Below are positions 23,278 to 43,320 of a stretch of 64,000 nt of DNA, one piece after another. Position 1 is the stretch's first letter. Every line of letters begins with the position of its first letter. Source of the stretch: a virus (lineage: Duplodnaviria; Caudoviricetes); IMG/VR virus record IMGVR_UViG_2684623024_000001, positions 4,207-68,206 of that record; one strand, 5' to 3'. The notes beneath the pieces are model-generated. The model ran no database searches. It was not told the DNA's origin and saw nothing but the letters and a program-made list of their open reading frames with translations. The translations under genes and the position numbers were made by a program.

Positions 23278-23280
23278 TGG

Positions 23281-24221: not shown

Positions 24222-24235
24222 GCGGCACCCCCGCC

Positions 24236-26598: not shown

Positions 26599-26599
26599 C

Positions 26600-27031: not shown

Positions 27032-27112
27032 GCGTTCGAGCGTAGCCGCGCCCGCCGACAGCCCGGAATCTGTGCCCTGGGCCGACTTCACCAGCCCCTC
27101 CCCACCACGACG

Positions 27113-28228
27113 TCAGGCACTAGCGGAAGGTGCTGCAGCACACACGCGGGTGATCACAGATTCGCTGGTGTTGAGGGCGGTGAACAGGTCCACTCGCAGG
27201 TCTTCGGGAATGGCGCCGGAGCCCAAAGCACACCCCTCGACGATTCTCTGAAGACGGCCTGCCTGCTGGGCGGTCATGTACTCGTGGCAACCAGGGTGAG
27301 ACAGCACATCGCGAGCTGCGTAGCCGTCGCCTACCGCGATGGTCTCCTCGACGAGATCTGTGGCGATACGGCTGGCAATCCCCGAACCCTGTCCGCCAGC
27401 AAGGTCGATGGCGGACAGCCCCAGCCGTGTGAGGAACACCGCCAGGCCAGCACTTCGCTCCAGGGAACGGTAGAGATCCACCAAGCCGTCGAGAGCAGTG
27501 TGGACCGGCAGGTTCGCCGTCCGCCTGCACAGCACCGTAAGAAGTACTGCAATCGTGCTCTCCCACGCCTCACCAGGAACGGTGCCACTCAGAAGGACCT
27601 CGGCCCGTTCGATGTCTCCCGCCGTGATGTGGGCTATGACGGCAACCTGGCGGCCGTCGAGCATTCTGCTGCCGATGCCCTTGTGCCGCTGGACCTGGGC
27701 GTGTGCCTCCGCCCACATGTCGGCGCTGGCCAGGGCGCGCGTACCGTCGGCCAGCAGTACGGTCCACAGCCATTGATGAAGCTTGCGACGGTCCTCGTTC
27801 GCCCCGGTGATGTGCTCAAAGGACACCTCGTTCCCGTCGATCGTGACGGCCGTGCCGGACGTCACCGCTCGGTACATCGAGTCGAGAAGAGCAAAGCCAC
27901 CGCCTCCGTCGCCGGAACGGATCAGCAGCCGCGCGAGGTTGACCAGGGGCTCCAGGCCGAACCGGGCGACCTGCGCACCCAGGGGCTGGGTGCGCAGGTA
28001 CGCCACGGCGTGACGCCAGCACAGAGCTGTGGCCAGGTCCGGAAGGGCACAGTCGCTGGCGAGCAGGGCCGCCTTGTTGAAGGCGGCAGATGCTGGAGCC
28101 AGCCGGCCTGTGCACTCGGCCTCCCGTGCAAGGCCGCCGATCTCCTGAACGCGATCCACGAGGGGCGAACAGGCCGGCCGAGGCCGGGCGACCAGCGGAA
28201 AACGCCGCACTATCTGGCTGGCGTCCAT
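27113..28228 (-). CDS. Conserved hypothetical protein of FxLD lanthipeptide clusters
   Basis: RFPLVARPRPAC...NKAALLASDC...LEPLVNLARL...LDGRQVAV; starts 1 nt after the methyltransferase stop. Confidence 0.7.
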   Translation of the reverse strand: MDASQIVRRFPLVARPRPACSPLVDRVQEIGGLAREAECTGRLAPASAAFNKAALLASDCALPDLATALCWRHAVAYLRTQPLGAQVARFGLEPLVNLARLLIRSGDGGGGFALLDSMYRAVTSGTAVTIDGNEVSFEHITGANEDRRKLHQWLWTVLLADGTRALASADMWAEAHAQVQRHKGIGSRMLDGRQVAVIAHITAGDIERAEVLLSGTVPGEAWESTIAVLLTVLCRRTANLPVHTALDGLVDLYRSLERSAGLAVFLTRLGLSAIDLAGGQGSGIASRIATDLVEETIAVGDGYAARDVLSHPGCHEYMTAQQAGRLQRIVEGCALGSGAIPEDLRVDLFTALNTSESVITRVCAAAPSASA

Positions 28229-28229
28229 C

Positions 28230-30350
28230 TCACTGCCACTCGATGACGATCCGGTTGAGGGCATTGTCGAACGCGAATCGTCCCGGCGCCGAGACCGGCG
28301 GTGCACCATCGAGCTTCTGGACTTCGAAGGCCACGTCGCGCTCGCGGAAACCGCGATCCCATACGCCCATCTCTTCGGCCACCCGATCCGCGAGCTCCTT
28401 TCCTGCCGGACCGTGGCCGATGGCTCCCGCCTCGTACAACTGCCCGCCGTCCTCGGCAAGACCAGCCTTCCGCAGCGTGAGGTAGGCGAAGCTGCTTTGT
28501 TCCGCTACCGCCATGGGCCGGAACCCGTCGGCCAGGTTGCTGGCCCCGGCGCCGTTGCGATCGACTTCCATCCGGCTGAGGGCGTTGTCCAGGCTGCACG
28601 ACAGCCAGAGCCACATGTACTCCGGCGACTCAGACCCCCGGAACGTCACGCCCGACCACGCTTCGGTTCCCGGCTGGTCGAGCACGCCGCGCAGCGCCTC
28701 GTCCGCCTTCTGCTCCTGGTTGAACTGGAGCTTGACTGCGCCGTCGTCGGTCAGGGCGACAAGGCGCCGCGGGTCATCAGCTACGCCTGCCCGCAGCGGC
28801 ATGAACGTGCACATCGCACTGCGGACGCTACGCCAGCGGCCATCTGCGTCCCGCTCGAAGGCGACAGCACGCGAGACGCTGCCCCGCAGCCGGAGCGGCA
28901 CGACGAGGCGGCCGTCGGACGCGAGCTGGTCGAGCCAGGCCGACGGGATGCCGTGAGCACCAACGGTCGCGACGATCCGGTCATAGGGAGCGCCCTCCGG
29001 GTGGCCGACCGCGCCGTCTCCGAGGATTACGGTCACGACGTCGGCGAATCCGGCTTCTTCGACGGCCGCTTGGGCGTTGTCCACGAGGTCCTGGTCCACG
29101 TCGATCGTGTAGACGTGCCCCTCTTCACCGACCAGACGTCCCATGGTCGAGGCGAACAGGCCGCTGCCGGCGCCGCCTTCCAGGATCCTCATGCCCGGCT
29201 TCGCTTCGGTGAGTTCCAGCATGAGGGCGTTGACCGACGGCTGGGAGACGGCGCTGATGGACGCACCGGAGCTGTCGAACTTGGTGTGGACCGGGGTGTC
29301 GGCGTACGCCTCTTCGAGGGTGGCGCCAGGTTTCGACTGGCGTACGAACACGTGTCGAGGTACTGCCCGAAGAGCGGCTTCGATGTCGTCGCTGTGCACG
29401 CGCCCATCGGCCTTGAGCTGGTCGACCAGCTTATTGCGGAGGTTCTCGGCAGCGGTGTTGTCGTTGATCGTGTCGGTATCCACGCCGGTGAGGCTAGCGG
29501 CGTCAGCGGCCGTGCCTGATGCAGACGCGGCGGATTCGCTCGTTCCCATGACTACCTCTTTCGCCAGGTTTGACAAGGTGCTTTGGTCCTCACTGCTGAG
29601 GCCCAATCGGTTCCAGTGGAAGATCAGGTGGTGGGCGAGTACCGCTCGAAACCCGCGTTCCAGCCGTCCAAGGCGGTGGAGGCGAGCGAGCCGCTGCCCT
29701 GCCCACTCGAACGTGGCAAGCCAGTCGGCCAGTCCCGCCAGCGGGCCTCCGTCGACGAGCCTGCTGGTGGCGCTGACATCGACGGTCATGAGCTGTCGCA
29801 CAGCCTTCGCGGCCCGGTCGGACACGGGCGCGACCGCCGTGCCTTGTCGTTCAGCGGCCACCCTCGCCCATACGTCGCCCTGCTCGAAACGATCCAGGCC
29901 CGCGGAGCGCATGAAAACGCTGAACAGCAGGATCGCCAGCTCGCGCCGTCCCAGGCTCGGCGCCTCGGGGGCTTCCCGCACAGCGGCGGCGAATTCGAGG
30001 ATGTGGCGGCTGTCGTGGTGAAACAGCTCGTGGGCCAGCTTCATCCCGGCGGCGCCGCCGAATGCCACCGTCTCCGGCTCGTAGATCCCCACCGTCCACT
30101 CGCTGACTAAGCCCTCGGCCCGCAGGCGTTCCAAGAGGCTGTCCAGGCGTGTGGAAGCCCGATCGTCAGTGGGCTCATACCGGATCCGCCAGCACGGGAA
30201 TTTGCGCAGGAACGACCACTGCGCGATCTCGCCCTCCGCTGCACCGACCTCAAGCTCGGGCAGAAGGTGTTCGGCGGCGAGCTGTTCGGAGTCCGGCCAG
30301 GTGGCGAACTGGACGAGGCGCTGCGGCCACTCGTCAGGTGCCATATTCAC
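28230..30350 (-). CDS. fxlM: Glutamyl-lyase (thiopeptide-type elimination) domain fused to FxLD-system L-isoaspartate O-methyltransferase (LanS-type)
   Basis: N-terminal WSFLRK...YEPETVAFGG...HHLIFHWNRLG; C-terminal PIMT VPRH...SQPS...LEGGAGSG...PYDRI. Confidence 0.88.
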   Translation of the reverse strand: MNMAPDEWPQRLVQFATWPDSEQLAAEHLLPELEVGAAEGEIAQWSFLRKFPCWRIRYEPTDDRASTRLDSLLERLRAEGLVSEWTVGIYEPETVAFGGAAGMKLAHELFHHDSRHILEFAAAVREAPEAPSLGRRELAILLFSVFMRSAGLDRFEQGDVWARVAAERQGTAVAPVSDRAAKAVRQLMTVDVSATSRLVDGGPLAGLADWLATFEWAGQRLARLHRLGRLERGFRAVLAHHLIFHWNRLGLSSEDQSTLSNLAKEVVMGTSESAASASGTAADAASLTGVDTDTINDNTAAENLRNKLVDQLKADGRVHSDDIEAALRAVPRHVFVRQSKPGATLEEAYADTPVHTKFDSSGASISAVSQPSVNALMLELTEAKPGMRILEGGAGSGLFASTMGRLVGEEGHVYTIDVDQDLVDNAQAAVEEAGFADVVTVILGDGAVGHPEGAPYDRIVATVGAHGIPSAWLDQLASDGRLVVPLRLRGSVSRAVAFERDADGRWRSVRSAMCTFMPLRAGVADDPRRLVALTDDGAVKLQFNQEQKADEALRGVLDQPGTEAWSGVTFRGSESPEYMWLWLSCSLDNALSRMEVDRNGAGASNLADGFRPMAVAEQSSFAYLTLRKAGLAEDGGQLYEAGAIGHGPAGKELADRVAEEMGVWDRGFRERDVAFEVQKLDGAPPVSAPGRFAFDNALNRIVIEWQ

Positions 30351-30371
30351 TGTTGCCTCTCGTCGTACGGG

Positions 30372-31640
30372 TCAGTTGATCAAGAAGCATGTGTCCCAGC
30401 CGGATATGGGGGGCGTGCCTGTCTGCGTCGCGTGCAGAGCGAGAGCCACGCCGGCTGCGCCTTCGAGCAGTCCGATGTCGCCGGGCCCGTTCGGCGGCCG
30501 AAGAAGCGATGTGGCCAGAGCATCTGGCTCGACGTGTGTGATGGGAGCGAGCAGGCGAGGCAGGTGCTCGGCGAGGACGGGCTTGATCGCGTCCGCCGCC
30601 ATGCTCCGCGTGATGTGCGCCAGTCCCGCAAATCCGTGACAGATGGAGTGATCTCCAGTCGCTTGCAGCTGTTCCGGATCTGTCATCGCGTGTGCCATGG
30701 CGCTCTCGGCCATCTGTTGCCGCTCTGTGTCGCCCGTCGCGATTCCAGCGAGTTGCAAAGCTCGGGCAATGCCCGCTGTTCCGTAGCACCAGCTCGGGCG
30801 TGAGGGGCCGTTGCCGGCATCGCCGGAGCGAAGCTGCTCTCGGGTGATCCAGTAGGGCCACCAGGGTCCGGCTGGTCCGTCCTGACGCCATCGATCCAGC
30901 CATGCGCAGGTCCGGCTGATTGCCTCGGCCTGTCCGTCGACAGTGACACCGCGCCGTGCGGCGATCGACAGAAGAGCGAGTGGGCCACCGATGCCGTGCG
31001 CTACGCCCGTGTTGGCGTGGCCTTGAGGGAATTCCGGTGACGGCTTGCCGGAGGGGGCCAGGTCGCACCACCAGCCGGGTAGGAGCTCGCCGGAGCTTTC
31101 GATCGGTTCGGTGAGCCGGACCAGGTAGGAAAGGACAGCTCGTGCCAGGTCGACTTGGCCCTCGCGCCTGAGCAGAAGAGCACCGAGGCCGCTCAGGCCC
31201 CGAATGGTGTCGAACTCCGCCAGCGCGGGCAGCTGCCCACAGTCCATTCGGAGATGTGCACGCTCCAGCCGGTGACGCGTCATGTTCTCGATGTGCCGGT
31301 CGAGGGTGTCCAGGGCGCGGGCATACCGCTCGGGCCGGTCTGCCGCGGCGTTCAGAGCGAAGGCGAGCGCGGGGGCGCCGTAGTAGAGGTGACCGTCCGC
31401 GCCGCCGACGGCTGGGGCTTCAGCGGCGCAGGTGAGCCAGTCGTGAGCGCGTTTCCACGACGCGATGCCGGAGCGTGCCCGCTCGATGTGTAAGAGAGCG
31501 ACGCCTGCGGCGCCGTACGCCAGAGACTGCGGAAACCAGCCCTGTGTGAGTTCAAGCCCGCGCACATCGGCCGGTGAAGCCAAGCGATCGGCGATGGCGT
31601 CGGCTGCTGCCTGCACCCTGAGATCTGACGTTTCGGTCAT
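30372..31640 (-). CDS. lanC: Lanthionine cyclase
   Basis: GVAHG, SWCYG, SICHG Zn-ligand motifs; GLLEG. Confidence 0.95.
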   Translation of the reverse strand: MTETSDLRVQAAADAIADRLASPADVRGLELTQGWFPQSLAYGAAGVALLHIERARSGIASWKRAHDWLTCAAEAPAVGGADGHLYYGAPALAFALNAAADRPERYARALDTLDRHIENMTRHRLERAHLRMDCGQLPALAEFDTIRGLSGLGALLLRREGQVDLARAVLSYLVRLTEPIESSGELLPGWWCDLAPSGKPSPEFPQGHANTGVAHGIGGPLALLSIAARRGVTVDGQAEAISRTCAWLDRWRQDGPAGPWWPYWITREQLRSGDAGNGPSRPSWCYGTAGIARALQLAGIATGDTERQQMAESAMAHAMTDPEQLQATGDHSICHGFAGLAHITRSMAADAIKPVLAEHLPRLLAPITHVEPDALATSLLRPPNGPGDIGLLEGAAGVALALHATQTGTPPISGWDTCFLIN

Positions 31641-34600
31641 GAATGCCGCGCTTTCCAGGCGAGCGCAGCGGCACGAGCCAGCCTCAGGCATGTGCGCTCG
31701 TCGTCTTTGTCGATGCCGGCGGCTCGGATGTGGTGGCCATGGAGGAGCGAATCAAGGATGGTGTCGGGGTTCACGTCCTCGGCCTGGCGTAATAGCTCCC
31801 GATACTGGCCCAGGGCGCGGTCGCGGGCTGCCCACTGGGCGTAGATCGTCTCTCCGCCGGGGGCTGCACGGAGTCCGGCCCAGTTGTCCGAGGGGTCAGC
31901 CAGCCGTACCGCCTCCGCGAGCACGTGTCGATCCAGCGGTTCGGAAGCGTCAATCTTGCCGTATCTGATCATCCAGTCCATGCCCTCGCGCGAGCCGCCG
32001 GAGAAGGCCACCGCGATGGCTACGAGGTTGCTGGCTGCGAGGACCTGCGGGTGGGGGCCGCCTGGTAGGGCGAACTGTTGGGCCAGACAGTGTGAGTCGG
32101 CGGCGAAGACGGCCTCGACGGCTTGCATGGCTGCCCCGCGTCCCCACCTTCCGGTCTCGGGATAGGAGGTGGCGAATTGCAGGTCGCTGAGCAAGCCTTC
32201 CTCACGAAGACCATCCGCCCACCTGCTGATGCGCGCGGCGGCCTGGCCGAAGGCTGCGGGGTCAGGAAGAGCAACCCTCAGGCGAATGTGCGGGCGCGGG
32301 TCGCGATACCTCATGTACCACCACGCTGGCGGCTGGTCCCATTGCGCGAGGAGCTGCGGGAGGTAGTGGCCCAGGATTTCTGGCTGCCGCTCGTTGTGCC
32401 CGTACAGCTTGGCCATAAGCCATTCGGATCCGCCGGGCAGGCGCCCGTGGCCACGTCCAATGAGGCGGGAAGCGGAGACAGCTGGTGCGGCGGGCCACTG
32501 CGGGGGAGCGGCTGCCGTCATCGGAACGGTGATCTCGTGGGCATGGCCACCGAACCAGGTGCTGGTGCCCTGGGGGGCTTCGGTGAGCACCGCGCGCTCG
32601 GAAGCGTCCAGGTGCGAGCGCAGGAGTTCGAGGTGTGCGCTGTGCCCGAGGTCCAGGTGCAGAAGTCGGTCGCCCTCGGTCAGGTAGACCGAGTTCGGGA
32701 GCCGGCGTTGCTCTGCCCACCTTTGCAGCTCCTCGCGCCACTCTTTCCACGGAGCAGCGCGGCTGGGCAGTTCGGAGCGCGTCAGTCGCCACCTGGCCGG
32801 CGAGAGGACCGTTCGGCCGTAGCGCAGGCGCGGAAGGAACGGGAGCCGATCAGCAATGCCCCACGTGAAGCCGGTGACGACGGCGGCCTGCGCTTTGCCG
32901 ATCTCGCTGAGGAACCGGGCCAAGGGCGGGGTGTGTGTTCGCAGGTCGAGAGCGTGTAGTGCGTAGGCGTCCACTCGGGCCTTTCGGGATACCGAAGCCA
33001 GGTAGAGGCGACGTCGGTCGCAGCCCACTGCGAGATCGCCCAGCGGAATCACGCTCGGGCTTGCTGGTCGGTGTTCCGCCACGCTGATGATCTCGGGGGC
33101 CAATGCGGGCGCGCGGGTTACGTGGGCGTCGCTCGGGTCGAGCGGTGCAAAGGAGAGCTGGGCCAGCCGCGTACCGGGATCGGTCGTCGGCAGTTGCGCG
33201 ATTTCACGGGCTGCTCGGGCTCGATCAGATTCGTCCAGCAAACCGATGAAGCGACCGGACAGGGTACCGACGCCGCGGGAGGCACTGATGACAGAGAGCG
33301 TGAAGTCGCCGCTGTCGAGTGCGTGGACCGACTCGGCGTGAAGTTGGAACCGCAGCTCGAAGTGAGGAGGGATCTGCACCCTCTTCCGGTCCCCAAGCTG
33401 TAGCTCGGTGATCGTTTGCCCATCGAGCTGGACCTCGTCGCGACCGTCGAGCGCGGCGCTTTGGGCCAGGGCAAGAAGCTGGTGATCGCGCGTGCTCACC
33501 GGCCCTTCCGGCTCGGGCTCTCCATCGAGGTATCCAGCAGGGAACCCAAGACCGATGTCGGGGTCAACGACGTCCCGGAGCGGGACGAGAGAGCCGATCC
33601 CGTACCGCTCAAAGAACCTGTTGTGGTACTCCTTCCACGCCGCAGTCCCGAACGGCCAGGCAGTCAGCTGCGCCAACGCCGTCGCTGCCGATTCGGCTTC
33701 ACGGCGAACCCCCCGCGGGAGGGTGAGTGAGCAGTCCACACGCAGGTCCACCGCCAGGGGCTGAGAGGCGACGGCGCTCACGTCCGTCATCAGGCCCCGC
33801 AGCTCGGCGCGCAGACACCGGCTGGCGGGACCGGTGCCTACCTGGTTGTGCTCGTTCATGCGACGGCGAACAGAGCGGAGACGACCAACGATCTCACTGG
33901 CCTCAGGCACGTCTTCGATACGGGCCGCTTCCACCTGATCCATGAGGTGAGCGAAGGCGTCGAACGTGGTCGACGGCGCATGGAGGCTGGTGATCAGGGC
34001 TCCGTGTTCCACCAGGGTCTCGATGAGGGGAGCAATCTTGCCCGCTGCCTTGGGGAACTCGGCGGCCACCTTCTCCACCAGCTCGTCGTAGCGGACCGGC
34101 GCTCGGGCAGCTTCGACCGCTACCCGGACTGGTGCGGTGTACCTCAGGCGCGCCTCGGCCACGGCACCACCTTCCACGGAGCGACGCGGGGACGGGTATG
34201 GAACGACCAGCCGGTTGCCCCGTAAGAACACCGCTGCATTTGCCATGAGCGGCAGCCGACACAGCACCTCCGGCACGGCTTCCAGCTGGCCGATGACGTC
34301 ACTGAGCCAGGCGGCATCAGCACGGGCAAGAGCACGGTGCCGTTCGCCCCAACGAACCGCGGTCTCGGCGCCGAATTCGGCCGGCGCCACACCAGCGAAC
34401 AGTCCGAAAGGTGTGGCCCGACTCGTCATCCGCAGCACGTATCGGATCACGGACAGAACCATTCGGCGCGCCTGCCGTACGTCCAAGCGCGCGTCGGAGC
34501 ACACCGCTCCCACCTGCTTTGCAAGGTCCGGGCTCGCCAGCTCGATCGCTTCGGCAACCGCGGACAACGCCCAGACTTCAGCCAGCCATTCGCGCCACCG

Positions 34601-34729
34601 CTGCACCTGTCCGGGCGAATCGTCAGCCATGTCCGGCCAGGCTGGCAGGTCCAGTTCGGACCAACAGGCGGCCCGTACGAGCACCGACTCACCACACCGA
34701 TACAGCTGTCGGCTACGTCTCGAAGCCAT
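31637..34729 (-). CDS. lanB: Class I lanthipeptide dehydratase
   Basis: 1030 aa; RMTSRATPFGLFAG, LPFLPRLRYG, WWYMRYRDPRPHIRLR. Confidence 0.95.
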   Translation of the reverse strand: MASRRSRQLYRCGESVLVRAACWSELDLPAWPDMADDSPGQVQRWREWLAEVWALSAVAEAIELASPDLAKQVGAVCSDARLDVRQARRMVLSVIRYVLRMTSRATPFGLFAGVAPAEFGAETAVRWGERHRALARADAAWLSDVIGQLEAVPEVLCRLPLMANAAVFLRGNRLVVPYPSPRRSVEGGAVAEARLRYTAPVRVAVEAARAPVRYDELVEKVAAEFPKAAGKIAPLIETLVEHGALITSLHAPSTTFDAFAHLMDQVEAARIEDVPEASEIVGRLRSVRRRMNEHNQVGTGPASRCLRAELRGLMTDVSAVASQPLAVDLRVDCSLTLPRGVRREAESAATALAQLTAWPFGTAAWKEYHNRFFERYGIGSLVPLRDVVDPDIGLGFPAGYLDGEPEPEGPVSTRDHQLLALAQSAALDGRDEVQLDGQTITELQLGDRKRVQIPPHFELRFQLHAESVHALDSGDFTLSVISASRGVGTLSGRFIGLLDESDRARAAREIAQLPTTDPGTRLAQLSFAPLDPSDAHVTRAPALAPEIISVAEHRPASPSVIPLGDLAVGCDRRRLYLASVSRKARVDAYALHALDLRTHTPPLARFLSEIGKAQAAVVTGFTWGIADRLPFLPRLRYGRTVLSPARWRLTRSELPSRAAPWKEWREELQRWAEQRRLPNSVYLTEGDRLLHLDLGHSAHLELLRSHLDASERAVLTEAPQGTSTWFGGHAHEITVPMTAAAPPQWPAAPAVSASRLIGRGHGRLPGGSEWLMAKLYGHNERQPEILGHYLPQLLAQWDQPPAWWYMRYRDPRPHIRLRVALPDPAAFGQAAARISRWADGLREEGLLSDLQFATSYPETGRWGRGAAMQAVEAVFAADSHCLAQQFALPGGPHPQVLAASNLVAIAVAFSGGSREGMDWMIRYGKIDASEPLDRHVLAEAVRLADPSDNWAGLRAAPGGETIYAQWAARDRALGQYRELLRQAEDVNPDTILDSLLHGHHIRAAGIDKDDERTCLRLARAAALAWKARHS

Positions 34730-34761
34730 GTGCTCCCTCCCTCGTAAGCCCTTCAGCCAGG

Positions 34762-34801
34762 TGCCGGTTCGGGCAGCGGCGTACCACTGCCCGAACCGGC
34801 A
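34762..34801 (-). terminator. Stem-loop between precursor genes and lanB
   Basis: TGCCGGTTCGGGCAG...CTGCCCGAACCGGCA inverted repeat. Confidence 0.65.
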
Positions 34802-34820
34802 TGGACTAGCGCCCCTGTGG

Positions 34821-34967
34821 TCAGGCCACCTTGGTGGCGCACGCGCTGGGGCACGAGCTGCCGCAGCCGTCGTCCGTCAGCACGATCAGCCGACCGTCAT
34901 CGACGCCGGACTCCAGAACGCTGACGTCCAGGTCGAACTCGTCCTTCATCTCCACTTTCATCTCCAC
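34821..34967 (-). CDS. lanA: FxLD-family lanthipeptide precursor A2 (48 aa)
   Basis: GGAGG RBS; MEMKVEMKDEFDLDVSVLE...TDDGCGSSCPSACATKVA. Confidence 0.92.
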   Translation of the reverse strand: MEMKVEMKDEFDLDVSVLESGVDDGRLIVLTDDGCGSSCPSACATKVA

Positions 34968-35083
34968 GGGGTTTCCTCCAAGGGTTGAGGCCGATCCGAA
35001 GGTTCGGCTCGGTGAGCCGGTTCCGCCGTCGCCGACGGCGCCCAGAACACGTTGGCGTCGGTCCTGGGAGTTCGAGGTGTTGC

Positions 35084-35257
35084 TCAGGCAGCGTTGCTGA
35101 CACACGAGGTGCCGCAGGTGCTCCCACAACCACCGTCGGAGGCCACGAGTTCGATGGTGGTCTTACCAGCGTCCAAGACGGTGATGTCCAGATCGAACGG
35201 GTCCTGAGCGACGGCGCCGGTGGACTCCGGCTGCCCTTCCAGCGTGCTGAGCATCAT
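35084..35257 (-). CDS. lanA: FxLD-family lanthipeptide precursor A1 (57 aa, not in ORF track)
   Basis: Hand-translated MMLSTLEGQPESTGAVAQDPFDLDITVLDAGKTTIELVASDGGCGSTCGTSCVSNAA; GGAGGT RBS. Confidence 0.92.
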   Translation of the reverse strand: MMLSTLEGQPESTGAVAQDPFDLDITVLDAGKTTIELVASDGGCGSTCGTSCVSNAA

Positions 35258-35464
35258 GGTGATACCTCCGTTGACTGGTCGAGACGATCTTGCGGTGTTG
35301 CAGATAGCCGGTCAGGCCCTGGAGCGTAGTGAGATAGCCACACCGCCCAGGCAGTTCCGGCCACCGGTCCGAGGTGCCATGCACCACCAGCTGGAGCGTG
35401 CGGGGCCGCTTCCCCCGGACCGGGGTTCAGGTGTGCCGCCGACGCTCACCGCGGCGGCCGTCGT

Positions 35465-36385
35465 TCATGCCACAGCCACTTCGAGCTGGTGGTTGAGCAC
35501 ATCAGAGAGGATGTCGGCGTCGAGCGTGAGGCGGACAACGTGGTGATCCGAGTCCGCCTCCGGGACCTCGATCACGTCAACGCCGACCACAGTTCCCAAC
35601 AGGTCGCTCGTGGCGTAGATGCGGTCGATGCGTGAGTCCGGACCGTGGGTCTCGCAACCGTTGACCGTGCGAGAAAGCGCCTTCGCGCTCCCATCCCGCG
35701 TGTTCGCCCAGTGGCGCGCGACATCCTCCAGCCCCGCCGTGCGCAGCGCCTCGTCCGGGCGGGTGTCCATGACGCGCCTGCCGCCGGGCCCAACGAAGGA
35801 TCGGTGCAAGCGGTGCGGCCGGTCGGCTATGGCCTTCAGTTCCGGCAAGGCGACGTCTCCCTCTACACCCGGTGAGGGGTACGAGTTGTTGTCCCCAGCC
35901 AGGAGAGCTGGCATCCGCACGGTCTCGCCGTCGGCCGTCGTCCACGTCTTGTCGGCCCAGACCGTGAGCCATTCGGCCTCGGCGAGCCGGGTGGTCGGGG
36001 AGGCGTAGTTCAGGTGGTACGAGGCCACCGCGATCGGCATGGATCGACTGCCCGCCGGCGTGAACCGCAAAGTCATGGCTGTCGGAGGCAGCACCCACAT
36101 TGGGCCGGTCTGCGGCCACTCTCTCAGCGGCTGGAACTTGCGGGGGTCGGCGAACACCGCAGTGCACGCCCGCGGGCCCAGCCAGCCGCGCAGGCCGAGG
36201 ACATCCTCCAGCTCGTACATGATCTCGTTGCCGTTGGCGTCCGCTCCCCACATCTCCTGCCGGAGGACGAGGTGCGGGTTGAGGGATACAAGCAACTCGT
36301 GCGCCCGGAGCCTCTTCGCTGCAATGCCCGCACCATTGCGCTCGAAGTTCCAGGACAGGACGGTAATTTGGGGCTTCCGGTTCAT
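35465..36385 (-). CDS. Endonuclease/exonuclease/phosphatase (EEP) family protein
   Basis: SWN, LRQE, SYHL, AGDNN, RIDRIY, SDH motifs. Confidence 0.88.
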   Translation of the reverse strand: MNRKPQITVLSWNFERNGAGIAAKRLRAHELLVSLNPHLVLRQEMWGADANGNEIMYELEDVLGLRGWLGPRACTAVFADPRKFQPLREWPQTGPMWVLPPTAMTLRFTPAGSRSMPIAVASYHLNYASPTTRLAEAEWLTVWADKTWTTADGETVRMPALLAGDNNSYPSPGVEGDVALPELKAIADRPHRLHRSFVGPGGRRVMDTRPDEALRTAGLEDVARHWANTRDGSAKALSRTVNGCETHGPDSRIDRIYATSDLLGTVVGVDVIEVPEADSDHHVVRLTLDADILSDVLNHQLEVAVA

Positions 36386-36403
36386 TGGTGGTCGCCTCCC
36401 GAG

Positions 36404-37330
36404 TTAGGCAGCCGTGGCGGCGCTGGGTGCCAGTGCGCGGCGCACACCGGAGAGGCTGAAGGTGGCCACGACGGGACAGTGATCGGACGCTTCACGGATC
36501 TCGTCGTTGACGATGACTTCCAGGCTCGTCAGGGCCTGGGTGACCTGCGGCGTGGCGTAGATCCGGTCGATGCGCTGCATCTCGCCTTGGTCCCTGCGCC
36601 ACAGGGACGCGGTCGGAGAGAGCGCGCCGGGCTGGCGCAGCCGCGTTGCGGCGTACTGCCCCAACTCGACGAACACCGGAGGCCGGCCGTGGTGCGTACC
36701 GGCGAGGATGTGATCCGGACGCGTGTCGGAAACGCGCTGCCCATCCCGGTCGACCGTGCGGTGCTCGAAGTGACTGCGATCCTCCACCTCGTCCCAGTCC
36801 GGAAGGAAGGCCGCCTCATCCTCACTGTGCGGATAGGAGTTGCAGTCGCCACCGATGATCGCCGCCATGCCAGGCTTGCCCAGGGTGGTCAACCGCCGCG
36901 CCTCGTTGACTCGCCGGTCGGGATCGAAGGAGCAGAGGTGGAACGACGCGAGACTCAGGTTTGTCTGGGCACCCTTCAGCCGCACGACAGGGTTGCAGAT
37001 GGGATGCCACATGCCGGTCGCGTGCTCGTAGAACTCGGTCGGCTCGCACAGGCCCGGATCGGTGTAGACGCCGGTCGCGTTTGCGGACTCCGGTGTGGCG
37101 CTGGCGAGGAACGCGCTGTGGCCTCCCAGACGAGCGGCCTCAGCCCACACCGCGCGCCTGCCGTACATGTCCGCGCGGGTCAGCTCCTGGCGCAACAGCA
37201 CATGGGGCTTGAGAGCAGCAAGGACGTCCATGGCGAGATGCCAGCGTTCGTCCGAGCCATCACGGCCGGTGCCGTTGTGCTCGACGTTCCACGAGACCAC
37301 GCGGAAGGCATCGTCATCGGACATACTCAA
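36404..37330 (-). CDS. Endonuclease/exonuclease/phosphatase (EEP) family protein
   Basis: SWNV, LRQE, SFHL, GGDCN, RIDRIY, SDH motifs. Confidence 0.88.
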   Translation of the reverse strand: MSMSDDDAFRVVSWNVEHNGTGRDGSDERWHLAMDVLAALKPHVLLRQELTRADMYGRRAVWAEAARLGGHSAFLASATPESANATGVYTDPGLCEPTEFYEHATGMWHPICNPVVRLKGAQTNLSLASFHLCSFDPDRRVNEARRLTTLGKPGMAAIIGGDCNSYPHSEDEAAFLPDWDEVEDRSHFEHRTVDRDGQRVSDTRPDHILAGTHHGRPPVFVELGQYAATRLRQPGALSPTASLWRRDQGEMQRIDRIYATPQVTQALTSLEVIVNDEIREASDHCPVVATFSLSGVRRALAPSAATAA

Positions 37331-37390
37331 GGAGTCCCCCTCAAGGTGGATTGATGAAGGCGGTCAGCAAGCAGGGCGGAGGAAGCGGGG

Positions 37391-38077
37391 TCAAGAGCGA
37401 GCAGCCGCGACCTCCCGTTCGAGATCAACGACAGTGACGCCACGCAGCTCGCGCACGAGCTGGGAGGCCAGAAACCAGGGCCTGAGCAGACGTTCCTTGT
37501 AGGGCAGGGGCGTGTCCTCGTCCTCGTCACTGACCTTCACGGGCACGGGCCGGAGATCAGGTCCAGTCGTATAGAGAGTGCCGATCACCCCGTACAGGCG
37601 CGGCACACGTACCCGAAGCACCACAGCCCCCGCCCTCACCACGTGGCCACACTGCTCGACCGCAACCACAGCGCAATCAAGGCAGAGAGGCGGCTGCCAG
37701 GTAAGGGCGCCCTCCGGCCAATCCGGCTTCACAGAACCATCTGGCCTCGTCGCCAGGAACAGGTAACCTCTGGCGGTATGGCTGGCCCGTTGGACGACAC
37801 ACACCTGGCACCGGAGGCCCCGCATCGTCTCGCGCTGCCGAGACGGATGTACATCCCCCCATCGCGGAGACCCGGCCGGCCAACCGTCTTCGAGAATCTG
37901 GGAACAGCGGGCCCAGAGGATCCCTTGGTCGTCCCGGTCCCTAGGGCTCTCGTCCAGGTAGCAGATTCCTCTGCCGCCGGGGCGAAGCCCGAGCATTGCG
38001 GCAGATTCTGGGTCCTCGCCACGCCGAGCGGTGATGTACGGGACAACGGCATACCAGGGCATGGGAAGAGTAGTCAT
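37391..38077 (-). CDS. hypothetical Cys-containing protein
   Basis: VVPYIT...HPSRQ...CQVC...PPLCLDCA...CGH. Confidence 0.7.
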   Translation of the reverse strand: MTTLPMPWYAVVPYITARRGEDPESAAMLGLRPGGRGICYLDESPRDRDDQGILWARCSQILEDGWPAGSPRWGDVHPSRQRETMRGLRCQVCVVQRASHTARGYLFLATRPDGSVKPDWPEGALTWQPPLCLDCAVVAVEQCGHVVRAGAVVLRVRVPRLYGVIGTLYTTGPDLRPVPVKVSDEDEDTPLPYKERLLRPWFLASQLVRELRGVTVVDLEREVAAARS

Positions 38078-38376
38078 GCCGCAGCCCTCATAACGCGCGA
38101 GAGCGGGCGGTGCGGCTCGACGATCCGGCCGTCCGGAAGCAGCTCACCGGTGTCGTCGAAGAGCAGGACGCCATTGCACAGCAGGCTCCAGCCTTGCTCG
38201 GGATGGCAGGCCACGGGATGCGCTGCTTCCCGGTCAGTGGCCTCCGCGGCGGGGCAGGCGGGACGGTGTTGACAACGGCGGTACGCGTCCGGCTTGCGGA
38301 ACACCGGTGACGTGGCGCGTGAGCTGGCTCGCACGGCAAGTTGGCCTTTCATCGCTGGGCTGGCGGCACTGGGCAT
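38074..38376 (-). CDS. DUF5999-like protein
   Basis: CQHRPACP...HPEQGWSLLCNGVLLFDDTGELLPDG. Confidence 0.8.
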   Translation of the reverse strand: MPSAASPAMKGQLAVRASSRATSPVFRKPDAYRRCQHRPACPAAEATDREAAHPVACHPEQGWSLLCNGVLLFDDTGELLPDGRIVEPHRPLSRVMRAAA

Positions 38377-38610
38377 GGCGACCGGCCGCCGCTCTCTCCG
38401 CGTAAGGAGCGGCGGCCGGGGCCCGGCTCCCTGCGCCGACGGGGGACGGCGTACCCACCAGGGAGCGGGCCGCTTCCTCCGCCCTGACCATCCCGGGACC
38501 AGGCCGTGCCCGTGTCGGCGAGCGCAGCGGTCGCGAGGTGGCGGAGGAAGCCATCTGCGGTCATCGCGGCGCAGGGGACAGCGGTCCGGCCGCGCGGAGA
38601 TGACCTGTTC

Positions 38611-38817
38611 TTAGGGGCCGAGGTGAACGACGTACTGGTAAGTGAGCCAGCCGACGACACCGATGGTGAAGGAACCGACCACGGCGGCCTGGCCGAGGCC
38701 GAATCCAGTGCTGCTGATCGCCTTGTCGTGGTTGCGAAGGAGCGTCTGGTAGGGATGCTTGATCGCCCAGCGCAGGCGCGGCAACCGGCGCTTCCTTCTA
38801 TGCGCGGCACTCATCAT
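38611..38817 (-). CDS. small membrane protein
   Basis: Basic N-terminus, C-terminal TM segment; GGGGGAGG RBS. Confidence 0.5.
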   Translation of the reverse strand: MMSAAHRRKRRLPRLRWAIKHPYQTLLRNHDKAISSTGFGLGQAAVVGSFTIGVVGWLTYQYVVHLGP

Positions 38818-38891
38818 CGCCTCCCCCACTTCGAGCCGAAGAGTGCGAGGAGTCCGAAGGCGACCACAATGCCTAAGCCGATGGATGTCAC
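38814..38891 (-). CDS. 25-aa single-TM peptide (not in ORF track)
   Basis: MTSIGLGIVVAFGLLALFGSKWGRR; GTGA and ATGA overlaps on both sides, GAGGAG RBS. Confidence 0.5.
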   Translation of the reverse strand: MTSIGLGIVVAFGLLALFGSKWGRR

Positions 38892-39103
38892 GACACCCGC
38901 TCCTCACCGGTGAGGACGCGGTGCAGGCGGCGCCAGGTCCGGGGAGCGTCCGAGACGTGGAAGAAGTCGGGTGCGCGCTCCTCCAGTTCGTGTCGCGCGT
39001 CGAGCTGTTCCATGGCCTGCTGAGGCGTACGGACCGGCAAGGGGTCGTACGTGGTGCCCGGCTGAATGATCCGGGGCGTGGTATCGCGGCGTCCCTCAAG
39101 CAT
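38888..39103 (-). CDS. hypothetical protein
   Basis: 71 aa, GGAGG RBS, divergent from XRE. Confidence 0.5.
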   Translation of the reverse strand: MLEGRRDTTPRIIQPGTTYDPLPVRTPQQAMEQLDARHELEERAPDFFHVSDAPRTWRRLHRVLTGEERVS

Positions 39104-39476
39104 GGGTTGCCTCCACGGTGTTGGTTGTGCCGGCTGCCAGTCGCATGGCACCTGGGTGAGGAATCGGAGCCGGAGCGCAGCCGCGCTCATCGGACAGGGA
39201 CGGATCTTCTTCTCCGCCACCCACGCGAACCGCACTGCACGGCGCGCTCCGGCCGCCGGCGCGGGCTCACCTCCCCCAGGAGATCGCCCCTCGCCGGCAC
39301 AACTACGTTGGCGCTTATGCGGCTTCATCGGCAACCGAATCTGCGTTGAATATTCAGCTGAAGACACATTGGTATATGCCGAGATCCGCACAAGGGGCTG
39401 CGGAGCCCGCACACGGGATGCCACACTCTGCGCACACCAGCAGGTGATCCGCACAGCGGTATGGGGAGGGCGCACA

Positions 39477-40373
39477 GTGGCAGCGAAGCGTGGGGCAACC
39501 GGACGACGTCTGGAACTCGGGCTCCAGCTACGGCAGATGCGGGAAAGCATCGTCATGAAGACCGGCAAGCCAATGACGCGCAAGGCTGCTGTCACCGGCA
39601 CGAAGCTCTCCGAGGCCGCGCTACAGCGCATCGAGACAGGCGCCCTGAACTTCCGGAACGTCGGTGACCTACGCAAGTTGCTGGACAAGTACGGCGTCAC
39701 AGACGAGGAGGTCATCGAGACTCTTGTCGAGCTGAACCGCGACTCGTCGAACCAGGACTGGGTGACCCGCTACCGCAGAGTCATGCAGGCCGGTATGCCG
39801 ACCTTCGTGGGAGTCGAGTCGGAGGCGCGGGAGATCCGCGTGTACCAACCGACGGCAGTCCATGGCTTGTTGCAGACCGAGGGTTATGCTCAGGCCATAT
39901 TCGACATCGGGAAGCCGGTCGAGGAGACCACCACGGAGTTCTGCCGCCAGAACGTCGCGCTTCGCATGGAGCGCAAGGAGAGGGTCCTGCGGCGGGAGCC
40001 CGATCCGGTCAAGCTGTGGGTGATCCTGGGTGAGGCGGCGCTGCGCCACATCGTTGGGGACATAGAGGTGATGCGTGAGCAGTACGAAGAGATCACGAAG
40101 CTGGCTGCACTCGATCATGTAGCGATTCAAGTGCTCCCCCTCGCCGGCCGGGGCTACCGCGCATCCCACGACTTCGCCATCCTCGACCTTGGCGATGGTC
40201 TGCCACCGATGGTGCAGATCGACACCGCCTGGGGTGCCGTCTCGACCTCCGACAAGCCACGCGAGGTCGATAGGTTCAAGCGCCGATTCGACACGATGAT
40301 GTCCTCGGCGCTCCCGCCAGAGGACACCGCCGAGTTCATGCAACGACTAGACCGAGAGTTGAAGAGCCATTAA
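39477..40373 (+). CDS. XRE-family HTH regulator with DUF5753 domain
   Basis: RRLELGLQLRQMRE...RIETG; GLLQTEGYA; ILGEAAL...MREQ; paired with DUF397. Confidence 0.9.
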   Translation: MAAKRGATGRRLELGLQLRQMRESIVMKTGKPMTRKAAVTGTKLSEAALQRIETGALNFRNVGDLRKLLDKYGVTDEEVIETLVELNRDSSNQDWVTRYRRVMQAGMPTFVGVESEAREIRVYQPTAVHGLLQTEGYAQAIFDIGKPVEETTTEFCRQNVALRMERKERVLRREPDPVKLWVILGEAALRHIVGDIEVMREQYEEITKLAALDHVAIQVLPLAGRGYRASHDFAILDLGDGLPPMVQIDTAWGAVSTSDKPREVDRFKRRFDTMMSSALPPEDTAEFMQRLDRELKSH

Positions 40374-40380
40374 CACTCAC

Positions 40381-40599
40381 ATGCACCACCCCACGGCCCC
40401 CGAACTGGCGCCCGAGAGCGCCTGGTACAAGTCGTCGTACAGCAGCGGCGACACGGGCAACTGCATCGAGATTGTCAACCTGAGCAGTCAGATCGGCATC
40501 CGCGACTCCAAAGACACGAGCGGACCGGCGCTCGTCGTGTCGACTGCCGCGTGGTCGTCGTTCGTAGACCTCGTGCGTTCAGGTGATGTCGACCTGTAG
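40381..40599 (+). CDS. DUF397 protein
   Basis: WYKSSYS...NCIEI...IRDSKD..GPAL...AW..F. Confidence 0.93.
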   Translation: MHHPTAPELAPESAWYKSSYSSGDTGNCIEIVNLSSQIGIRDSKDTSGPALVVSTAAWSSFVDLVRSGDVDL

Positions 40600-40607
40600 T
40601 CATGGCA

Positions 40608-40648
40608 CGGAGTGGTCCTCCCCAGGGGATTTGGGGAGGACCACTCCG
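40608..40648. terminator. Stem-loop between convergent genes at the island edge
   Basis: CGGAGTGGTCCTCCCCA...TGGGGAGGACCACTCCG. Confidence 0.75.
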
Positions 40649-40686
40649 CGTCTGCGCTTCACCCTGACGTACGGGTCCGACAATCG

Positions 40687-41559: not shown

Positions 41560-41566
41560 GGCCGCT

Positions 41567-43307: not shown

Positions 43308-43320
43308 CGTCGGTCGCCTC

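What the first reader, a model, noticed from the sequence alone, without database searches (positions are those of the whole stretch)
27113..40648. Class I FxLD lanthipeptide cluster carried as cargo inside a prophage head-neck module
Seen: lanA x2, lanB, lanC, a GL-PIMT fusion and a conserved hypothetical form one minus-strand run between the MuF-like and DUF6093 genes, with no transporter, protease or immunity gene. Known: this layout matches the S. coelicolor coi-type class I clusters, a family reported to have intracellular anti-phage activity (lanthivirins). Inference: the temperate phage may deliver a RiPP-based chemical defence to its lysogen against competing phages and spread it by virion, an unusual moron in a structural operon.
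Basis: partly seen in the sequence, partly recalled or inferred. Interest (0 to 1): 0.92.

Follow-up and report, generated by a model that had tools for sequence, protein, structure and literature searches.

The report
Anti-phage lanthipeptide cassette in prophage hotspot
A Streptomyces prophage carries a complete gene set for a modified peptide of a family reported to block other phages, in a swap site between its head and neck genes that in related prophages always holds cargo and in about half of them holds a different version of the same kind of gene set.

Summary
Window 27113-35257 (minus strand) holds two FxLD precursors, LanB, LanC, a GL-PIMT fusion and a CoiH-family gene. They lie in a 13.7-kb variable island between a MuF-like minor head gene and two DUF6093 genes with a weak neck/stopper-like fold.

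The record is a provirus. A 90-96% identical, colinear copy in S. lydicamycinicus TP-A0598 is flanked by a 47-bp direct repeat at a tRNA-Met, giving a 71.9-kb element.

What I add:
- The site is a hotspot. In 40 of 40 related Streptomycetaceae prophages where both flanks sit on one contig, it holds 8.6-38.8 kb of cargo. It is never empty.
- 19 of those 40 carry LanB+LanC cassettes, all co-oriented with the head genes.
- Cassettes are swapped independently of the backbone. The 21 elements compared fall into 10 LanC lineages at 70% identity.
- Other islands carry matches to known defence proteins.

Prophage carriage of such clusters is already in print (Sharma 2023; Shomar 2024), so the core idea is not new. 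The hotspot and its cassette turnover were not found in my literature searches. Anti-phage function and virion transfer remain untested.

The parts
27051..40756 (.). Variable cargo island (hotspot content), delimited by loss of homology to related prophages
   Evidence: In blastn against six relatives, homology on the head side ends at window 40757-40760, inside the 3' end of the MuF-like gene. Against G001 it resumes at 27050, about 14 codons into DUF6093a.
27113..28228 (-). LanH, CoiH-family gene (371 aa), putative methyllanthionine sulfoxide-forming enzyme
   Evidence: No Pfam or NCBIfam hit. 920 homologues, all named 'hypothetical'; the 100% identical 371-aa form lies on an 8,313,629-bp contig. 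In an alignment of 25 homologues D59, N97 and R100 are invariant, the same residues and numbers reported essential in CoiH.
28230..30350 (-). LanSA: N-terminal glutamyl-lyase domain fused to a C-terminal PIMT-type O-methyltransferase
   Evidence: PF14028 at residues 21-265 and PF01135 at 305-520. TIGR04364, 424 bits against a cut-off of 320.
30372..31691 (-). LanC cyclase
   Evidence: PF05147, E 3.5e-51.
31637..34729 (-). LanB dehydratase, full length (glutamylation and elimination domains)
   Evidence: PF04738 E 9.7e-218 and PF14028 E 2.5e-40.
34763..34800 (-). Stem-loop between lanA2 and lanB, a likely attenuator or mRNA-stabilising hairpin
   Evidence: Stem read from the sequence. The 91-nt RNA folds at -56.8 kcal/mol, z = -5.5, and 0 of 200 shuffles fold as well.
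34821..34967 (-). LanA2 precursor (48 aa), FDLD leader, core with T-D-D-G-C and three Cys
   Evidence: TIGR04363, 48.1 bits against a cut-off of 30. Start codon and SD read.
35084..35257 (-). LanA1 precursor (57 aa), FDLD leader, core with S-D-G-G-C and three Cys
   Evidence: TIGR04363, 37.8 bits against a cut-off of 30. ORF; SD.
35465..37330 (-). Two tandem EEP-fold (endonuclease/exonuclease/phosphatase) paralogues, 35465-36385 and 36404-37330; function unknown
   Evidence: PF03372 at E 1.7e-4 and 2.4e-5, at or below the cut-off. No PADLOC hit. Homologues occur in hotspot islands both with and without Lan genes.
37391..38376 (-). ORF without a family (37391-38077) plus a DUF5999 gene (38074-38376); this pair often precedes lanA in related cassettes
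   Evidence: PF19462, E 1.5e-34. A DUF5999 and/or g37391 homologue lies upstream of lanA in L021, L022, L023, L026, L029, L039 and L082 and in L093; both together in L021, L022, L023, L029 and L093. Both also lie upstream of lanA in L185, a different phage-like lineage.
39066..40599 (+). HTH_31-DUF5753 regulator-like gene (ORF 39066-40373; likely true start near 39470) and DUF397 gene (40363-40599), transcribed towards the MuF-like gene
   Evidence: PF19054 E 9e-45 and PF13560. PF04149, 66 bits against a cut-off of 24.
40608..40648 (.). 17-bp perfect inverted repeat with a 7-nt loop between the convergent MuF-like and DUF397 genes; candidate bidirectional terminator
40687..41727 (-). MuF-like minor head gene, head-side flank of the hotspot
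   Evidence: phrog_37388 E 4.6e-107 and phrog_4611 'minor head protein' E 4e-15. The Pfam hit is below its cut-off.
42252..51811 (-). Head and packaging module: MCP 42252-43307, decoration 43321-43782, scaffold 43890-44615, portal 45748-47580, large terminase 50039-51811
26173..27091 (-). Two DUF6093 paralogues, neck-side flank; weak stopper/head-closure-like fold
   Evidence: PF19586, E 2.6e-27 and 3.7e-22. AlphaFold model from 24 sequences, pLDDT 71.4. Foldseek: 8 of the top 10 PDB hits are phage neck or connector chains, but all have E of 1.9e-3 or weaker and TM 0.35-0.64.
19003..24796 (-). Tail module: tail tube 24236-24796, two small ORFs, tape measure 19003-23277
   Evidence: PF25595 E 8.5e-44 and PF10145 E 3.3e-33.
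62255..64000 (+). Tyrosine integrase, cut by the end of the record
   Evidence: PF00589, E 5.4e-14. In the relative G006 the gene is followed by the attR copy of a 47-bp repeat inside a tRNA-Met.

Best explanation
The window is most of an integrated Streptomyces temperate siphovirus-type prophage of about 72 kb, inserted at a tRNA-Met. Between its MuF-like minor head gene and its DUF6093 neck genes lies a recombination hotspot that is always filled with cargo.

Here the cargo is a complete coi/lanthivirin-type class I FxLD lanthipeptide operon (2 LanA, LanB, LanC, GL-PIMT LanSA, CoiH-like LanH), plus two EEP-fold genes, DUF5999 and an HTH_31-DUF5753/DUF397 pair.

Proposed mechanism (inferred from the published family, not shown here):
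1. LanB and the LanSA lyase domain dehydrate Ser/Thr residues.
2. LanC closes three thioether rings.
3. The PIMT domain methylates a ring Asp.
4. LanH oxidises the first methyllanthionine to a sulfoxide.
5. The product stays inside the cell, since no exporter or protease is present.
6. It blocks late transcription of superinfecting phages and so protects the lysogen.

Shown here: the gene content, the prophage context, the hotspot, and the swapping of cassettes independently of the phage backbone.
For: Gene content. The published coi layout and the roles of CoiSA and CoiH. Published anti-phage activity and intracellular action of the family.

Prophage context:
- TerL, portal, scaffold, decoration, MCP, tail tube, TMP and integrase are all present.
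- The record is classed as a provirus.
- It is colinear at 90-96% nt identity with S. lydicamycinicus TP-A0598.
- In that strain a 47-bp direct repeat (306239-306285 and 378066-378112) overlaps a tRNA-Met.
- The window's own LanH lies on an 8.3-Mb contig.

Hotspot:
- Of the 80 genome loci kept (of 101 confirmed relatives) for the MuF-like gene, I searched 50 of the 60 with full flanks for DUF6093a. 45 matched.
- 40 had both flanks on one contig, with 8.6-38.8 kb between them.
- 19 of these 40 carry LanB+LanC, all on the strand of the head genes.

Cassette swapping:
- Among 210 pairs of 21 elements, 52 have MCP identity of at least 93%. In 40 of those 52, LanC identity is below 70%.
- 14 of the 90 pairs with MCP identity of 50% or less have LanC identity of at least 70%.
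- Spearman rho is 0.06. There are 10 LanC lineages at 70% identity.
- Breakpoints are sharp.

Enrichment: in 401 Streptomyces species genomes, 8 hold a near full-length close MuF homologue and 4 of these hold LanH inside the hotspot. Overall there are 95 LanH match rows in 86 genomes.

Other cargo at the same site matches known defence proteins (mad2/3/8, pVip, AriA, ATPase-Toprim).
Against: - No experiment: anti-phage activity, product and expression of this cluster are unknown.
- No isolated phage in the 50,697-record collection carries this LanC type (1 distant Staphylococcus hit) or a close MuF homologue (only ZL12, at 35%).
- CheckV estimates 75% completeness for the record.
- Island size varies by 30 kb between relatives. 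This is hard to reconcile with a fixed capsid capacity, so some or all of these elements may not package their whole genome.
- LanA1 departs from the published TxDxC core motif.
- I could not place LanC on the published 'defensive clade' tree or compare LanH directly with the CoiH sequence.
- Much non-Lan cargo looks metabolic rather than defensive.
- Gene calls in relatives are crude (GC3-based ORFs and tblastn at E <= 1e-5 with at least 30% query coverage).
Confidence: 0.72

Rival explanations
1. The element is a defective or domesticated prophage. The lanthipeptide cluster is fixed chromosomal cargo that is inherited and exchanged by ordinary recombination and is not spread in virions.
For: - The island ranges from 8.6 to 38.8 kb between relatives, which argues against a constant packaged genome.
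- No close isolated phage was found.
- CheckV completeness is 75%.
- A stand-alone C-terminal half of a serine recombinase at 60953-61957 suggests some decay.
- Fragmentary MuF matches occur in 4 of 401 genomes.
Against: - All structural ORFs in the window align over nearly their full length to relatives, without breaks.
- Perfect 47-bp att repeats flank the relative.
- MCP is 93-99% identical across different named species, while neighbouring modules are mosaic. That is the pattern of a recently mobile phage.
Confidence: 0.2
2. The cassette mainly serves the phage during its own lytic growth. It would be co-transcribed with late genes as a weapon against co-infecting phages or as a modulator of transcription, rather than (or as well as) serving as a lysogen defence.
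For: - All 19 Lan cassettes are co-oriented with the head and tail genes.
- In the window the LanH stop lies 21 nt from the DUF6093a start, with no inverted repeat between them, so the lan operon and the neck genes look transcriptionally fused.
- A strong hairpin follows the MuF-like gene.
- No PF00583 GNAT, the family of the published escape locus, was found in the record.
Against: - Transcription has not been measured. The promoter and terminator scans were uninformative.
- Co-orientation with late genes is usual for phage morons.
- The GNAT of the published phages is said not to resemble known enzymes, so a Pfam miss is weak evidence.
Confidence: 0.15
3. The product is an ordinary secreted antibacterial or signalling lanthipeptide that benefits the lysogen in bacterial competition.
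For: Most characterised class I lanthipeptides are antibacterial (general knowledge). Phage-borne bacteriocin clusters are cited (its reference 62).
Against: - No transporter, leader protease or immunity family was found in the island.
- All family-specific accessory genes of the anti-phage family are present.
- The published family showed no activity in spent media.
Confidence: 0.06
4. The junctions are an assembly artefact that joins a chromosomal lanthipeptide cluster to phage fragments.
For: None found.
Against: - The same junctions occur in an independent assembly at 96.5% nt identity across 26177-43042.
- They also occur in two IMG/VR records.
- The same architecture is seen in 19 further genomes, including complete chromosomes.
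Confidence: 0.01

Closest known systems
coi cluster of Streptomyces coelicolor A3(2) and the 'lanthiphage'/'lanthivirin' family (Shomar et al. 2024 preprint; Chen, Zhu and van der Donk 2026 preprint)
   Same: - FxLD-leader precursors (FDLD + VLE/VLD).
- Full-length LanB, and LanC.
- A fused N-terminal GL and C-terminal O-methyltransferase.
- A CoiH-family gene with D59, N97 and R100.
- A T-D-D-G-C first-ring motif in LanA2.
- No exporter or protease.
   Different: - Two precursors rather than the three described for coi.
- LanA1 has S-D-G-G-C in place of the TxDxC motif.
- It lies inside a prophage structural region, next to EEP-fold, DUF5999 and HTH/DUF397 genes.
- Activity and product are untested.
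Prophage-borne class I lanthipeptide BGCs reported in surveys (Sharma et al. 2023, Sci Rep; Shomar et al. 2024, Fig 1d)
   Same: This is the same phenomenon. Sharma et al. state that class I lanthipeptide clusters occur in Streptomyces prophages. Shomar et al. state that the defensive clade is more often on prophages or plasmids.
   Different: The passages I read give no position within the phage genome, no phage lineage and no cassette turnover.
Defence hotspots of P2-like phages and P4-like satellites (Rousset et al. 2022; abstract seen in a search listing only)
   Same: Conserved flanking phage genes enclose a hypervariable slot that holds anti-phage systems, which are exchanged independently of the backbone.
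   Different: - The host phylum and the phage lineage differ.
- The slot here sits between head-morphogenesis and neck genes.
- About half of the slots hold a multi-gene RiPP pathway rather than protein-based systems.
- Many slots also hold metabolic-looking genes.
OlvSA-type lanthipeptide methyltransferases
   Same: A PIMT-type domain that methylates a conserved Asp and leads to isoAsp (as summarised).
   Different: OlvSA lacks the GL domain. The window's protein has one.

Membership tests
coi/lanthivirin (lanthiphage) class I FxLD lanthipeptide BGC | Precursor peptide(s) with an FxLD leader | tested here: met
   TIGR04363 at 37.8 and 48.1 bits against a cut-off of 30. FDLD read in both ORFs.
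coi/lanthivirin (lanthiphage) class I FxLD lanthipeptide BGC | LanB-like dehydratase and LanC-like cyclase (LphB, LphC) | tested here: met
   PF04738 + PF14028, and PF05147.
coi/lanthivirin (lanthiphage) class I FxLD lanthipeptide BGC | Accessory PF14028 + PF01135 protein (LphDE / CoiSA; GL at the N terminus, methyltransferase at the C terminus) | tested here: met
   Domain order 21-265 and 305-520. TIGR04364, 424 bits against a cut-off of 320. Definition taken.
coi/lanthivirin (lanthiphage) class I FxLD lanthipeptide BGC | LphF / CoiH-family protein with the residues reported essential (Asp59, Asn97, Arg100, Leu332) | tested here: met
   D59, N97 and R100 are invariant in 25 aligned homologues, at the same numbers. 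L335 and L326 are nearly invariant, with no exact L332. I held no CoiH sequence, so there was no direct alignment to CoiH.
coi/lanthivirin (lanthiphage) class I FxLD lanthipeptide BGC | Core motif TxDxCxxxCxxxC (present in 57% of family cores) | tested here: met
   LanA2 core T-D-D-G-C-G-S-S-C-P-S-A-C fits. LanA1 core S-D-G-G-C-G-S-T-C-G-T-S-C keeps the Cys spacing but not T or the D at position 3.
coi/lanthivirin (lanthiphage) class I FxLD lanthipeptide BGC | LanC falls in the 'defensive clade' of the published cyclase tree | not tested
   The tree and the profile HMMs are in supplements or on GitHub and were not available to me.
coi/lanthivirin (lanthiphage) class I FxLD lanthipeptide BGC | Confers protection against phage infection | not testable with these tools
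   Needs plaque assays.
Integrated temperate tailed prophage | Terminase, portal, scaffold, major capsid, tail tube and tape measure genes without breaks | tested here: met
   Full-length alignments to relatives.
Integrated temperate tailed prophage | Integrase and flanking att repeats in a host chromosome | tested here: met
   Integrase at 62255-64000. The window's record stops before the ends. In the colinear relative, a 47-bp repeat at a tRNA-Met flanks 71.9 kb.
Integrated temperate tailed prophage | Excision and production of infectious virions | not testable with these tools
   No RNA or raw-read run was usable.
Phage-encoded defence hotspot (P2/P4-type concept) | Conserved flanks with variable content that is exchanged independently of the backbone | tested here: met
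   40 of 40 islands are filled, at 8.6-38.8 kb. 206 clusters among 282 ORFs of the 21 non-Lan islands. MCP and LanC identities are uncorrelated. Breakpoints are sharp.
Phage-encoded defence hotspot (P2/P4-type concept) | Content is dominated by anti-phage systems | tested here: inconclusive
   19 of 40 islands hold Lan cassettes. Of 44 recurrent non-Lan cluster representatives, 8 PADLOC families matched with at most 9 member hits. Many others are metabolic-type families. 162 further clusters were not scanned.

The most novel reading that the evidence does not exclude
A widespread lineage of Streptomycetaceae temperate phages keeps a dedicated exchange slot at the head-neck junction. This slot acts as a shuttle and diversification site for lanthivirin cassettes: 10 or more LanC lineages on near-identical capsid backbones, always co-oriented with the late genes and apparently fused to them transcriptionally. 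On this reading the RiPP is made both in the lysogen and during the phage's own late phase, as a weapon in phage-phage competition to which the carrier phage is itself immune. At least one more distant siphovirus lineage, and a separate group of phage-like records with a portal-MuF fusion gene, show the same habit of placing the cassette next to structural genes. That would make phages a main route of horizontal spread for this defence chemistry.
Probability: 0.3. Interest if true: 0.72.

Novelty: new member of a known kind. Interest (0 to 1): 0.5.

Why it matters
- If the cassette works like its published relatives, this is a multi-gene chemical defence carried by a phage for its host.
- The family of prophages offers a natural panel: near-identical phage backbones carrying many different lanthivirin cassettes and other cargo at one defined site. 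That is convenient for testing specificity, self-immunity and the still unknown target of these peptides.
- There is a practical point for surveys. IMG/VR provirus calls for this lineage often stop at or within a few kilobases of the hotspot. Counts of BGCs or defence systems 'inside prophages' may therefore miss such cargo.
- The strain S. lydicamycinicus TP-A0598 carries a 96-97% identical copy and could be used directly.

Tried and rejected
- **Chymera and Samy.** I checked whether the element matches the described Streptomyces prophages Chymera and Samy. Chymera is a 35-kb element elsewhere in S. venezuelae. Samy is a 61-kb PhiC31-like phage with a serine integrase. Neither matches. My first recollection of Chymera as a phage-BGC hybrid was wrong.
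- **Conservon guess.** I took the three ORFs after LanH in several IMG/VR records for a conservon. Pfam showed a portal-MuF fusion instead.
- **Single-sequence fold of DUF6093a.** Useless at pLDDT 34. Redone with 24 sequences.
- **phmmer of DUF6093a against PDB sequences.** Nothing meaningful.
- **Promoter and terminator consensus scan of 26000-42500.** 0 promoter-like and 1 terminator-like site, fewer than in shuffles; uninformative for this organism.
- **PADLOC on ten island proteins of the window.** 0 hits.
- **Sequencing runs.** No RNA holder listed; 4 DNA runs are kept as contigs only.
It has no copy in the island.
- **Literature on the hotspot.** Searches found no description of this hotspot. 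They cover only the held library, and supplements were closed.
- **The portal-MuF group.** The lineage and completeness of these records were not resolved.

Full report
**1. What is in the window**

- Two short ORFs carry FDLD leaders and Cys-rich cores. Both pass NCBIfam TIGR04363, 'FxLD family lanthipeptide', at 37.8 and 48.1 bits against a cut-off of 30. Reading the DNA places LanA2's start at a GTG at 34967 behind a GGAGG, which gives 48 aa. LanA1 starts at 35257 behind a GGAGG.
- Next come a full-length LanB, a LanC and a 706-aa protein with Lant_dehydr_C at residues 21-265 and PCMT at 305-520. This last protein passes TIGR04364, 'methyltransferase, FxLD system', at 424 bits against a cut-off of 320.
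- The last gene has no Pfam or NCBIfam family. The protein database holds its exact 371-aa form on an 8,313,629-bp contig, together with 920 homologues, all named 'hypothetical'.
- In an alignment of 25 of these homologues (46-81% identical to the window's protein), D59, N97 and R100 are invariant. Chen et al. report that Asp59, Asn97, Arg100 and Leu332 are essential in CoiH. I therefore call the gene a CoiH-family member, although I had no CoiH sequence to align directly.
- A strong stem-loop lies between lanA2 and lanB (-56.8 kcal/mol, z = -5.5).

**2. The rest of the island**

Between lanA1 and the MuF-like gene lie:
- two EEP-fold paralogues, with weak PF03372 hits;
- an ORF without a family, and a DUF5999 gene;
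- two uncertain small ORFs;
- on the plus strand, an HTH_31-DUF5753 gene and a DUF397 gene.

None of ten island proteins hit PADLOC. No transporter, protease or immunity family appeared in any scan.

A 17-bp perfect inverted repeat sits between the convergent MuF-like and DUF397 genes. No inverted repeat was found in the 21 nt between the LanH stop and the DUF6093a start.

**3. The prophage**

The window is 64.0 kb of a 68.2-kb record that the tools class as a provirus, with CheckV completeness of 75%.

It encodes a large terminase, portal, scaffold, decoration protein, E-type major capsid protein, a MuF-like minor head protein, two DUF6093 proteins, a tail tube protein, a 1424-aa tape measure and a tyrosine integrase. 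It also has ParB-like and methyltransferase genes, a C5 methylase and a PD-(D/E)XK nuclease.

DUF6093a was modelled with 24 sequences (pLDDT 71.4). It gave weak but consistent Foldseek matches: 8 of the top 10 are chains of phage neck or connector complexes, including the SPP1 gp6/gp15/gp16 connector. All have E of 1.9e-3 or weaker. Together with the gene order, this supports a neck (stopper-like) role but does not prove it.

The whole record is colinear at 84-96% nt identity with a 1.03-Mb contig of S. lydicamycinicus TP-A0598; most blocks are 90-96% and the island-to-MCP block is the most conserved at 96.5%. In that strain a perfect 47-bp direct repeat lies at 306239-306285 and 378066-378112, and the right copy overlaps a tRNA-Met. 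This makes it an integrated element of 71.9 kb. The window is therefore a nearly complete prophage, and the junctions are not an assembly artefact.

**4. The site is a hotspot**

*IMG/VR relatives.* A scan with the MuF-like protein gave 16 loci.
- One near-identical record has the same island.
- A second, G001, has head and tail proteins that are 74-99% identical to the window's (MCP 98.6%, DUF6093a 88%, tail tube 93%). At the same place it carries a different coi-type cassette: LanB 54%, LanC 63%, LanSA 68% and LanH 61% identical.
- Five records end within 30 nt after the matched part of the MuF-like gene. Six more end 0.7-2.7 kb after it. This suggests that provirus callers cut these elements at the island.

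*Species-representative genomes.* 101 stretches encode relatives of the MuF-like protein, and 80 were kept. All are Streptomyces, Kitasatospora, Actinacidiphila or Peterkaempfera.
- 21 of the 80 show Lan genes within the 10 kb downstream of the MuF-like gene.
- I searched 50 of the 60 loci with full flanks for DUF6093a, and 45 matched.
- 40 have the MuF-like gene and DUF6093 on one contig, in the right order and strand. Nine had no such hit. One, L059, was dropped because its hit lay on another contig.
- In these 40 the interval is 8.6-38.8 kb. None is empty.
- 19 of the 40 carry LanB+LanC, always on the strand of the head genes. Counting L035, L056, L081 and L093, which have incomplete islands, at least 23 of the 80 loci are Lan-positive.
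- Several cluster architectures occur. One is the fused coi type. Another is a split type with a separate methyltransferase gene upstream and an EEP gene between LanC and the lyase gene (L031, L033). A third lacks LanH (L052, L054).

**5. Cassettes move independently of the backbone**

I compared 210 pairs among 21 elements (the window, G001 and 19 loci).
- 52 pairs have MCP identity of at least 93%. In 40 of these LanC identity is below 70%, in 33 it is below 55%, and in only 2 is it 90% or more.
- 14 of the 90 pairs with MCP identity of 50% or less share LanC at 70% or more.
- Spearman rho is 0.06, though the pairs are not independent.
- Single linkage at 70% gives 10 LanC lineages.

Homology to six relatives stops at window 40757-40760, about 23 codons before the MuF stop. 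Against G001 it resumes at 27050.

**6. Enrichment**

In 401 Streptomyces species genomes:
- 21 match the MuF-like protein at E <= 1e-20. Eight of these are close and near full length, and four are fragments.
- 86 genomes (95 match rows) hold a LanH homologue.
- Four of the eight prophages have LanH inside the hotspot. This is 4 of the 95 rows.

So this lineage carries only a small share of all such clusters, but its slot is loaded with them far more often than genomic background would give.

**7. Other cargo**

The 21 non-Lan islands gave 282 crude ORFs in 206 clusters. I scanned the 44 representatives of the recurrent clusters; one 2647-aa representative was left out.
- Pfam hits include GT4 'conflict' glycosyltransferases, HATPase_c, glutamine synthetase, EPSP synthase, permeases and sugar-nucleotide enzymes.
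- PADLOC hits include mad2, mad3, mad8, pVip, AriA and ATPase-Toprim.

The slot is thus a general cargo site with a defence flavour, not a purely defensive one.

**8. Other phage contexts**

A profile scan of IMG/VR with the LanH alignment found 13 records.
- Two are the ones described above.
- Two (L178, L182) belong to a more distant lineage, with a tail tube protein 52-56% identical. In these, LanH is followed directly by neck and tail genes.
- In seven, an 810-824-aa gene lies 0.1-5 kb downstream of LanH. The L186 copy hits Phage_portal plus Phage_Mu_F, and the other six copies are 50-75% identical to it. The group is unrelated to the window's portal.
- In the other two records (L181, L188) I found no phage structural gene near the cluster.

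**9. Comparison with what is known**

- Shomar et al. (preprint; I read the abstract, sections 5 and 7 in part, and passages found by term) define more than 2000 'lanthiphage' clusters by LphB, LphC, LphD/E/DE and LphF. They show anti-phage activity for five of them and argue for intracellular action and GNAT-linked escape. They state that the defensive clade is more often on prophages or plasmids.
- Chen et al. (preprint; sections 3, 9 and 10 read) describe the coi layout and CoiH chemistry, and use the name 'lanthivirins'.
- Sharma et al. 2023 (passages read) report BGCs in prophages of 13 of 2112 genomes and single out class I lanthipeptide clusters in Streptomyces prophages.

I did not find the head-neck hotspot, its constant occupancy or the cassette turnover in the searched library.

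**10. Verdict**

Function and virion transfer are inferred, not shown. The 30-kb spread of island sizes is the main reason to doubt that all these elements are still packaged whole.

Noticed in passing
L179, L180, L183, L184, L185, L186, L187 (IMG/VR records): A lanthivirin-type cluster, or LanH at the record's edge, lies 0.1-5 kb upstream of an 810-824-aa gene, with one or more smaller ORFs between. The L186 copy hits Phage_portal + Phage_Mu_F; the others are 50-75% identical to it. In four of the records (L183-L186) large opposite-strand ORFs follow. This is a second phage-like context, unrelated to the window's portal.
   Followed up: partly
L178 and L182 (IMG/VR records): In a more distant siphovirus-type lineage (tail tube protein 52-56% identical), LanH is followed directly by homologues of the window's neck and tail genes. 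Both records begin exactly at LanH.
   Followed up: partly
L004, L005, L009, L011, L014 and six further IMG/VR loci: Provirus records of this lineage end within 30 nt (five records) or 0.7-2.7 kb (six records) after the matched part of the MuF-like gene. Automatic provirus calling appears to cut the prophage at the hotspot, which would hide its cargo from prophage surveys.
   Followed up: no
L031 and L033 islands (loci L108/L109 and L112): In a split-type cassette an EEP-fold gene (39% identical to the window's EEP2) sits between LanC and the lyase-domain gene, inside the lan operon. EEP pairs also occur in non-Lan islands (L041, L048).
   Followed up: no
L020:13876-14763 (G001 island, next to DUF6093a): A 295-aa ORF with a two-transmembrane domain of the CyanoTRADDas_TM / SLATT type, which is found in conflict systems (E 7.8e-7).
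   Followed up: no
window 915, 7978, 11892, 59042: An AT-rich repeat of 14-16 bp occurs four times on the plus strand of an otherwise 67% G+C record. None of the copies is inside the island.
   Followed up: partly
window 60953-61957: An ORF with only the Recombinase and Zn-ribbon domains of a large serine recombinase and no catalytic N-terminal domain, next to a separate tyrosine integrase.
   Followed up: no
L189/L190 (G210:C1:6424000-6463999): The LanH closest to the window's in the 401-genome sample, apart from G006, is 60% identical. It sits with LanSA and only a partial LanC hit. No LanB hit and none of this lineage's phage genes lie within about 20 kb, so it may be a decayed cluster in another context.
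   Followed up: partly
Non-Lan hotspot islands (L104-L150): Recurrent cargo includes glutamine synthetase, EPSP synthase, amino-acid permease, asparagine synthase, acyl-CoA dehydrogenase and sugar-nucleotide enzymes. These look like small biosynthetic sets rather than classical defence genes.
   Followed up: no
window 53328-55684 and 57855-59048: Three ParB_N-domain genes lie upstream of the terminase, one of them fused to a methyltransferase domain.
   Followed up: no
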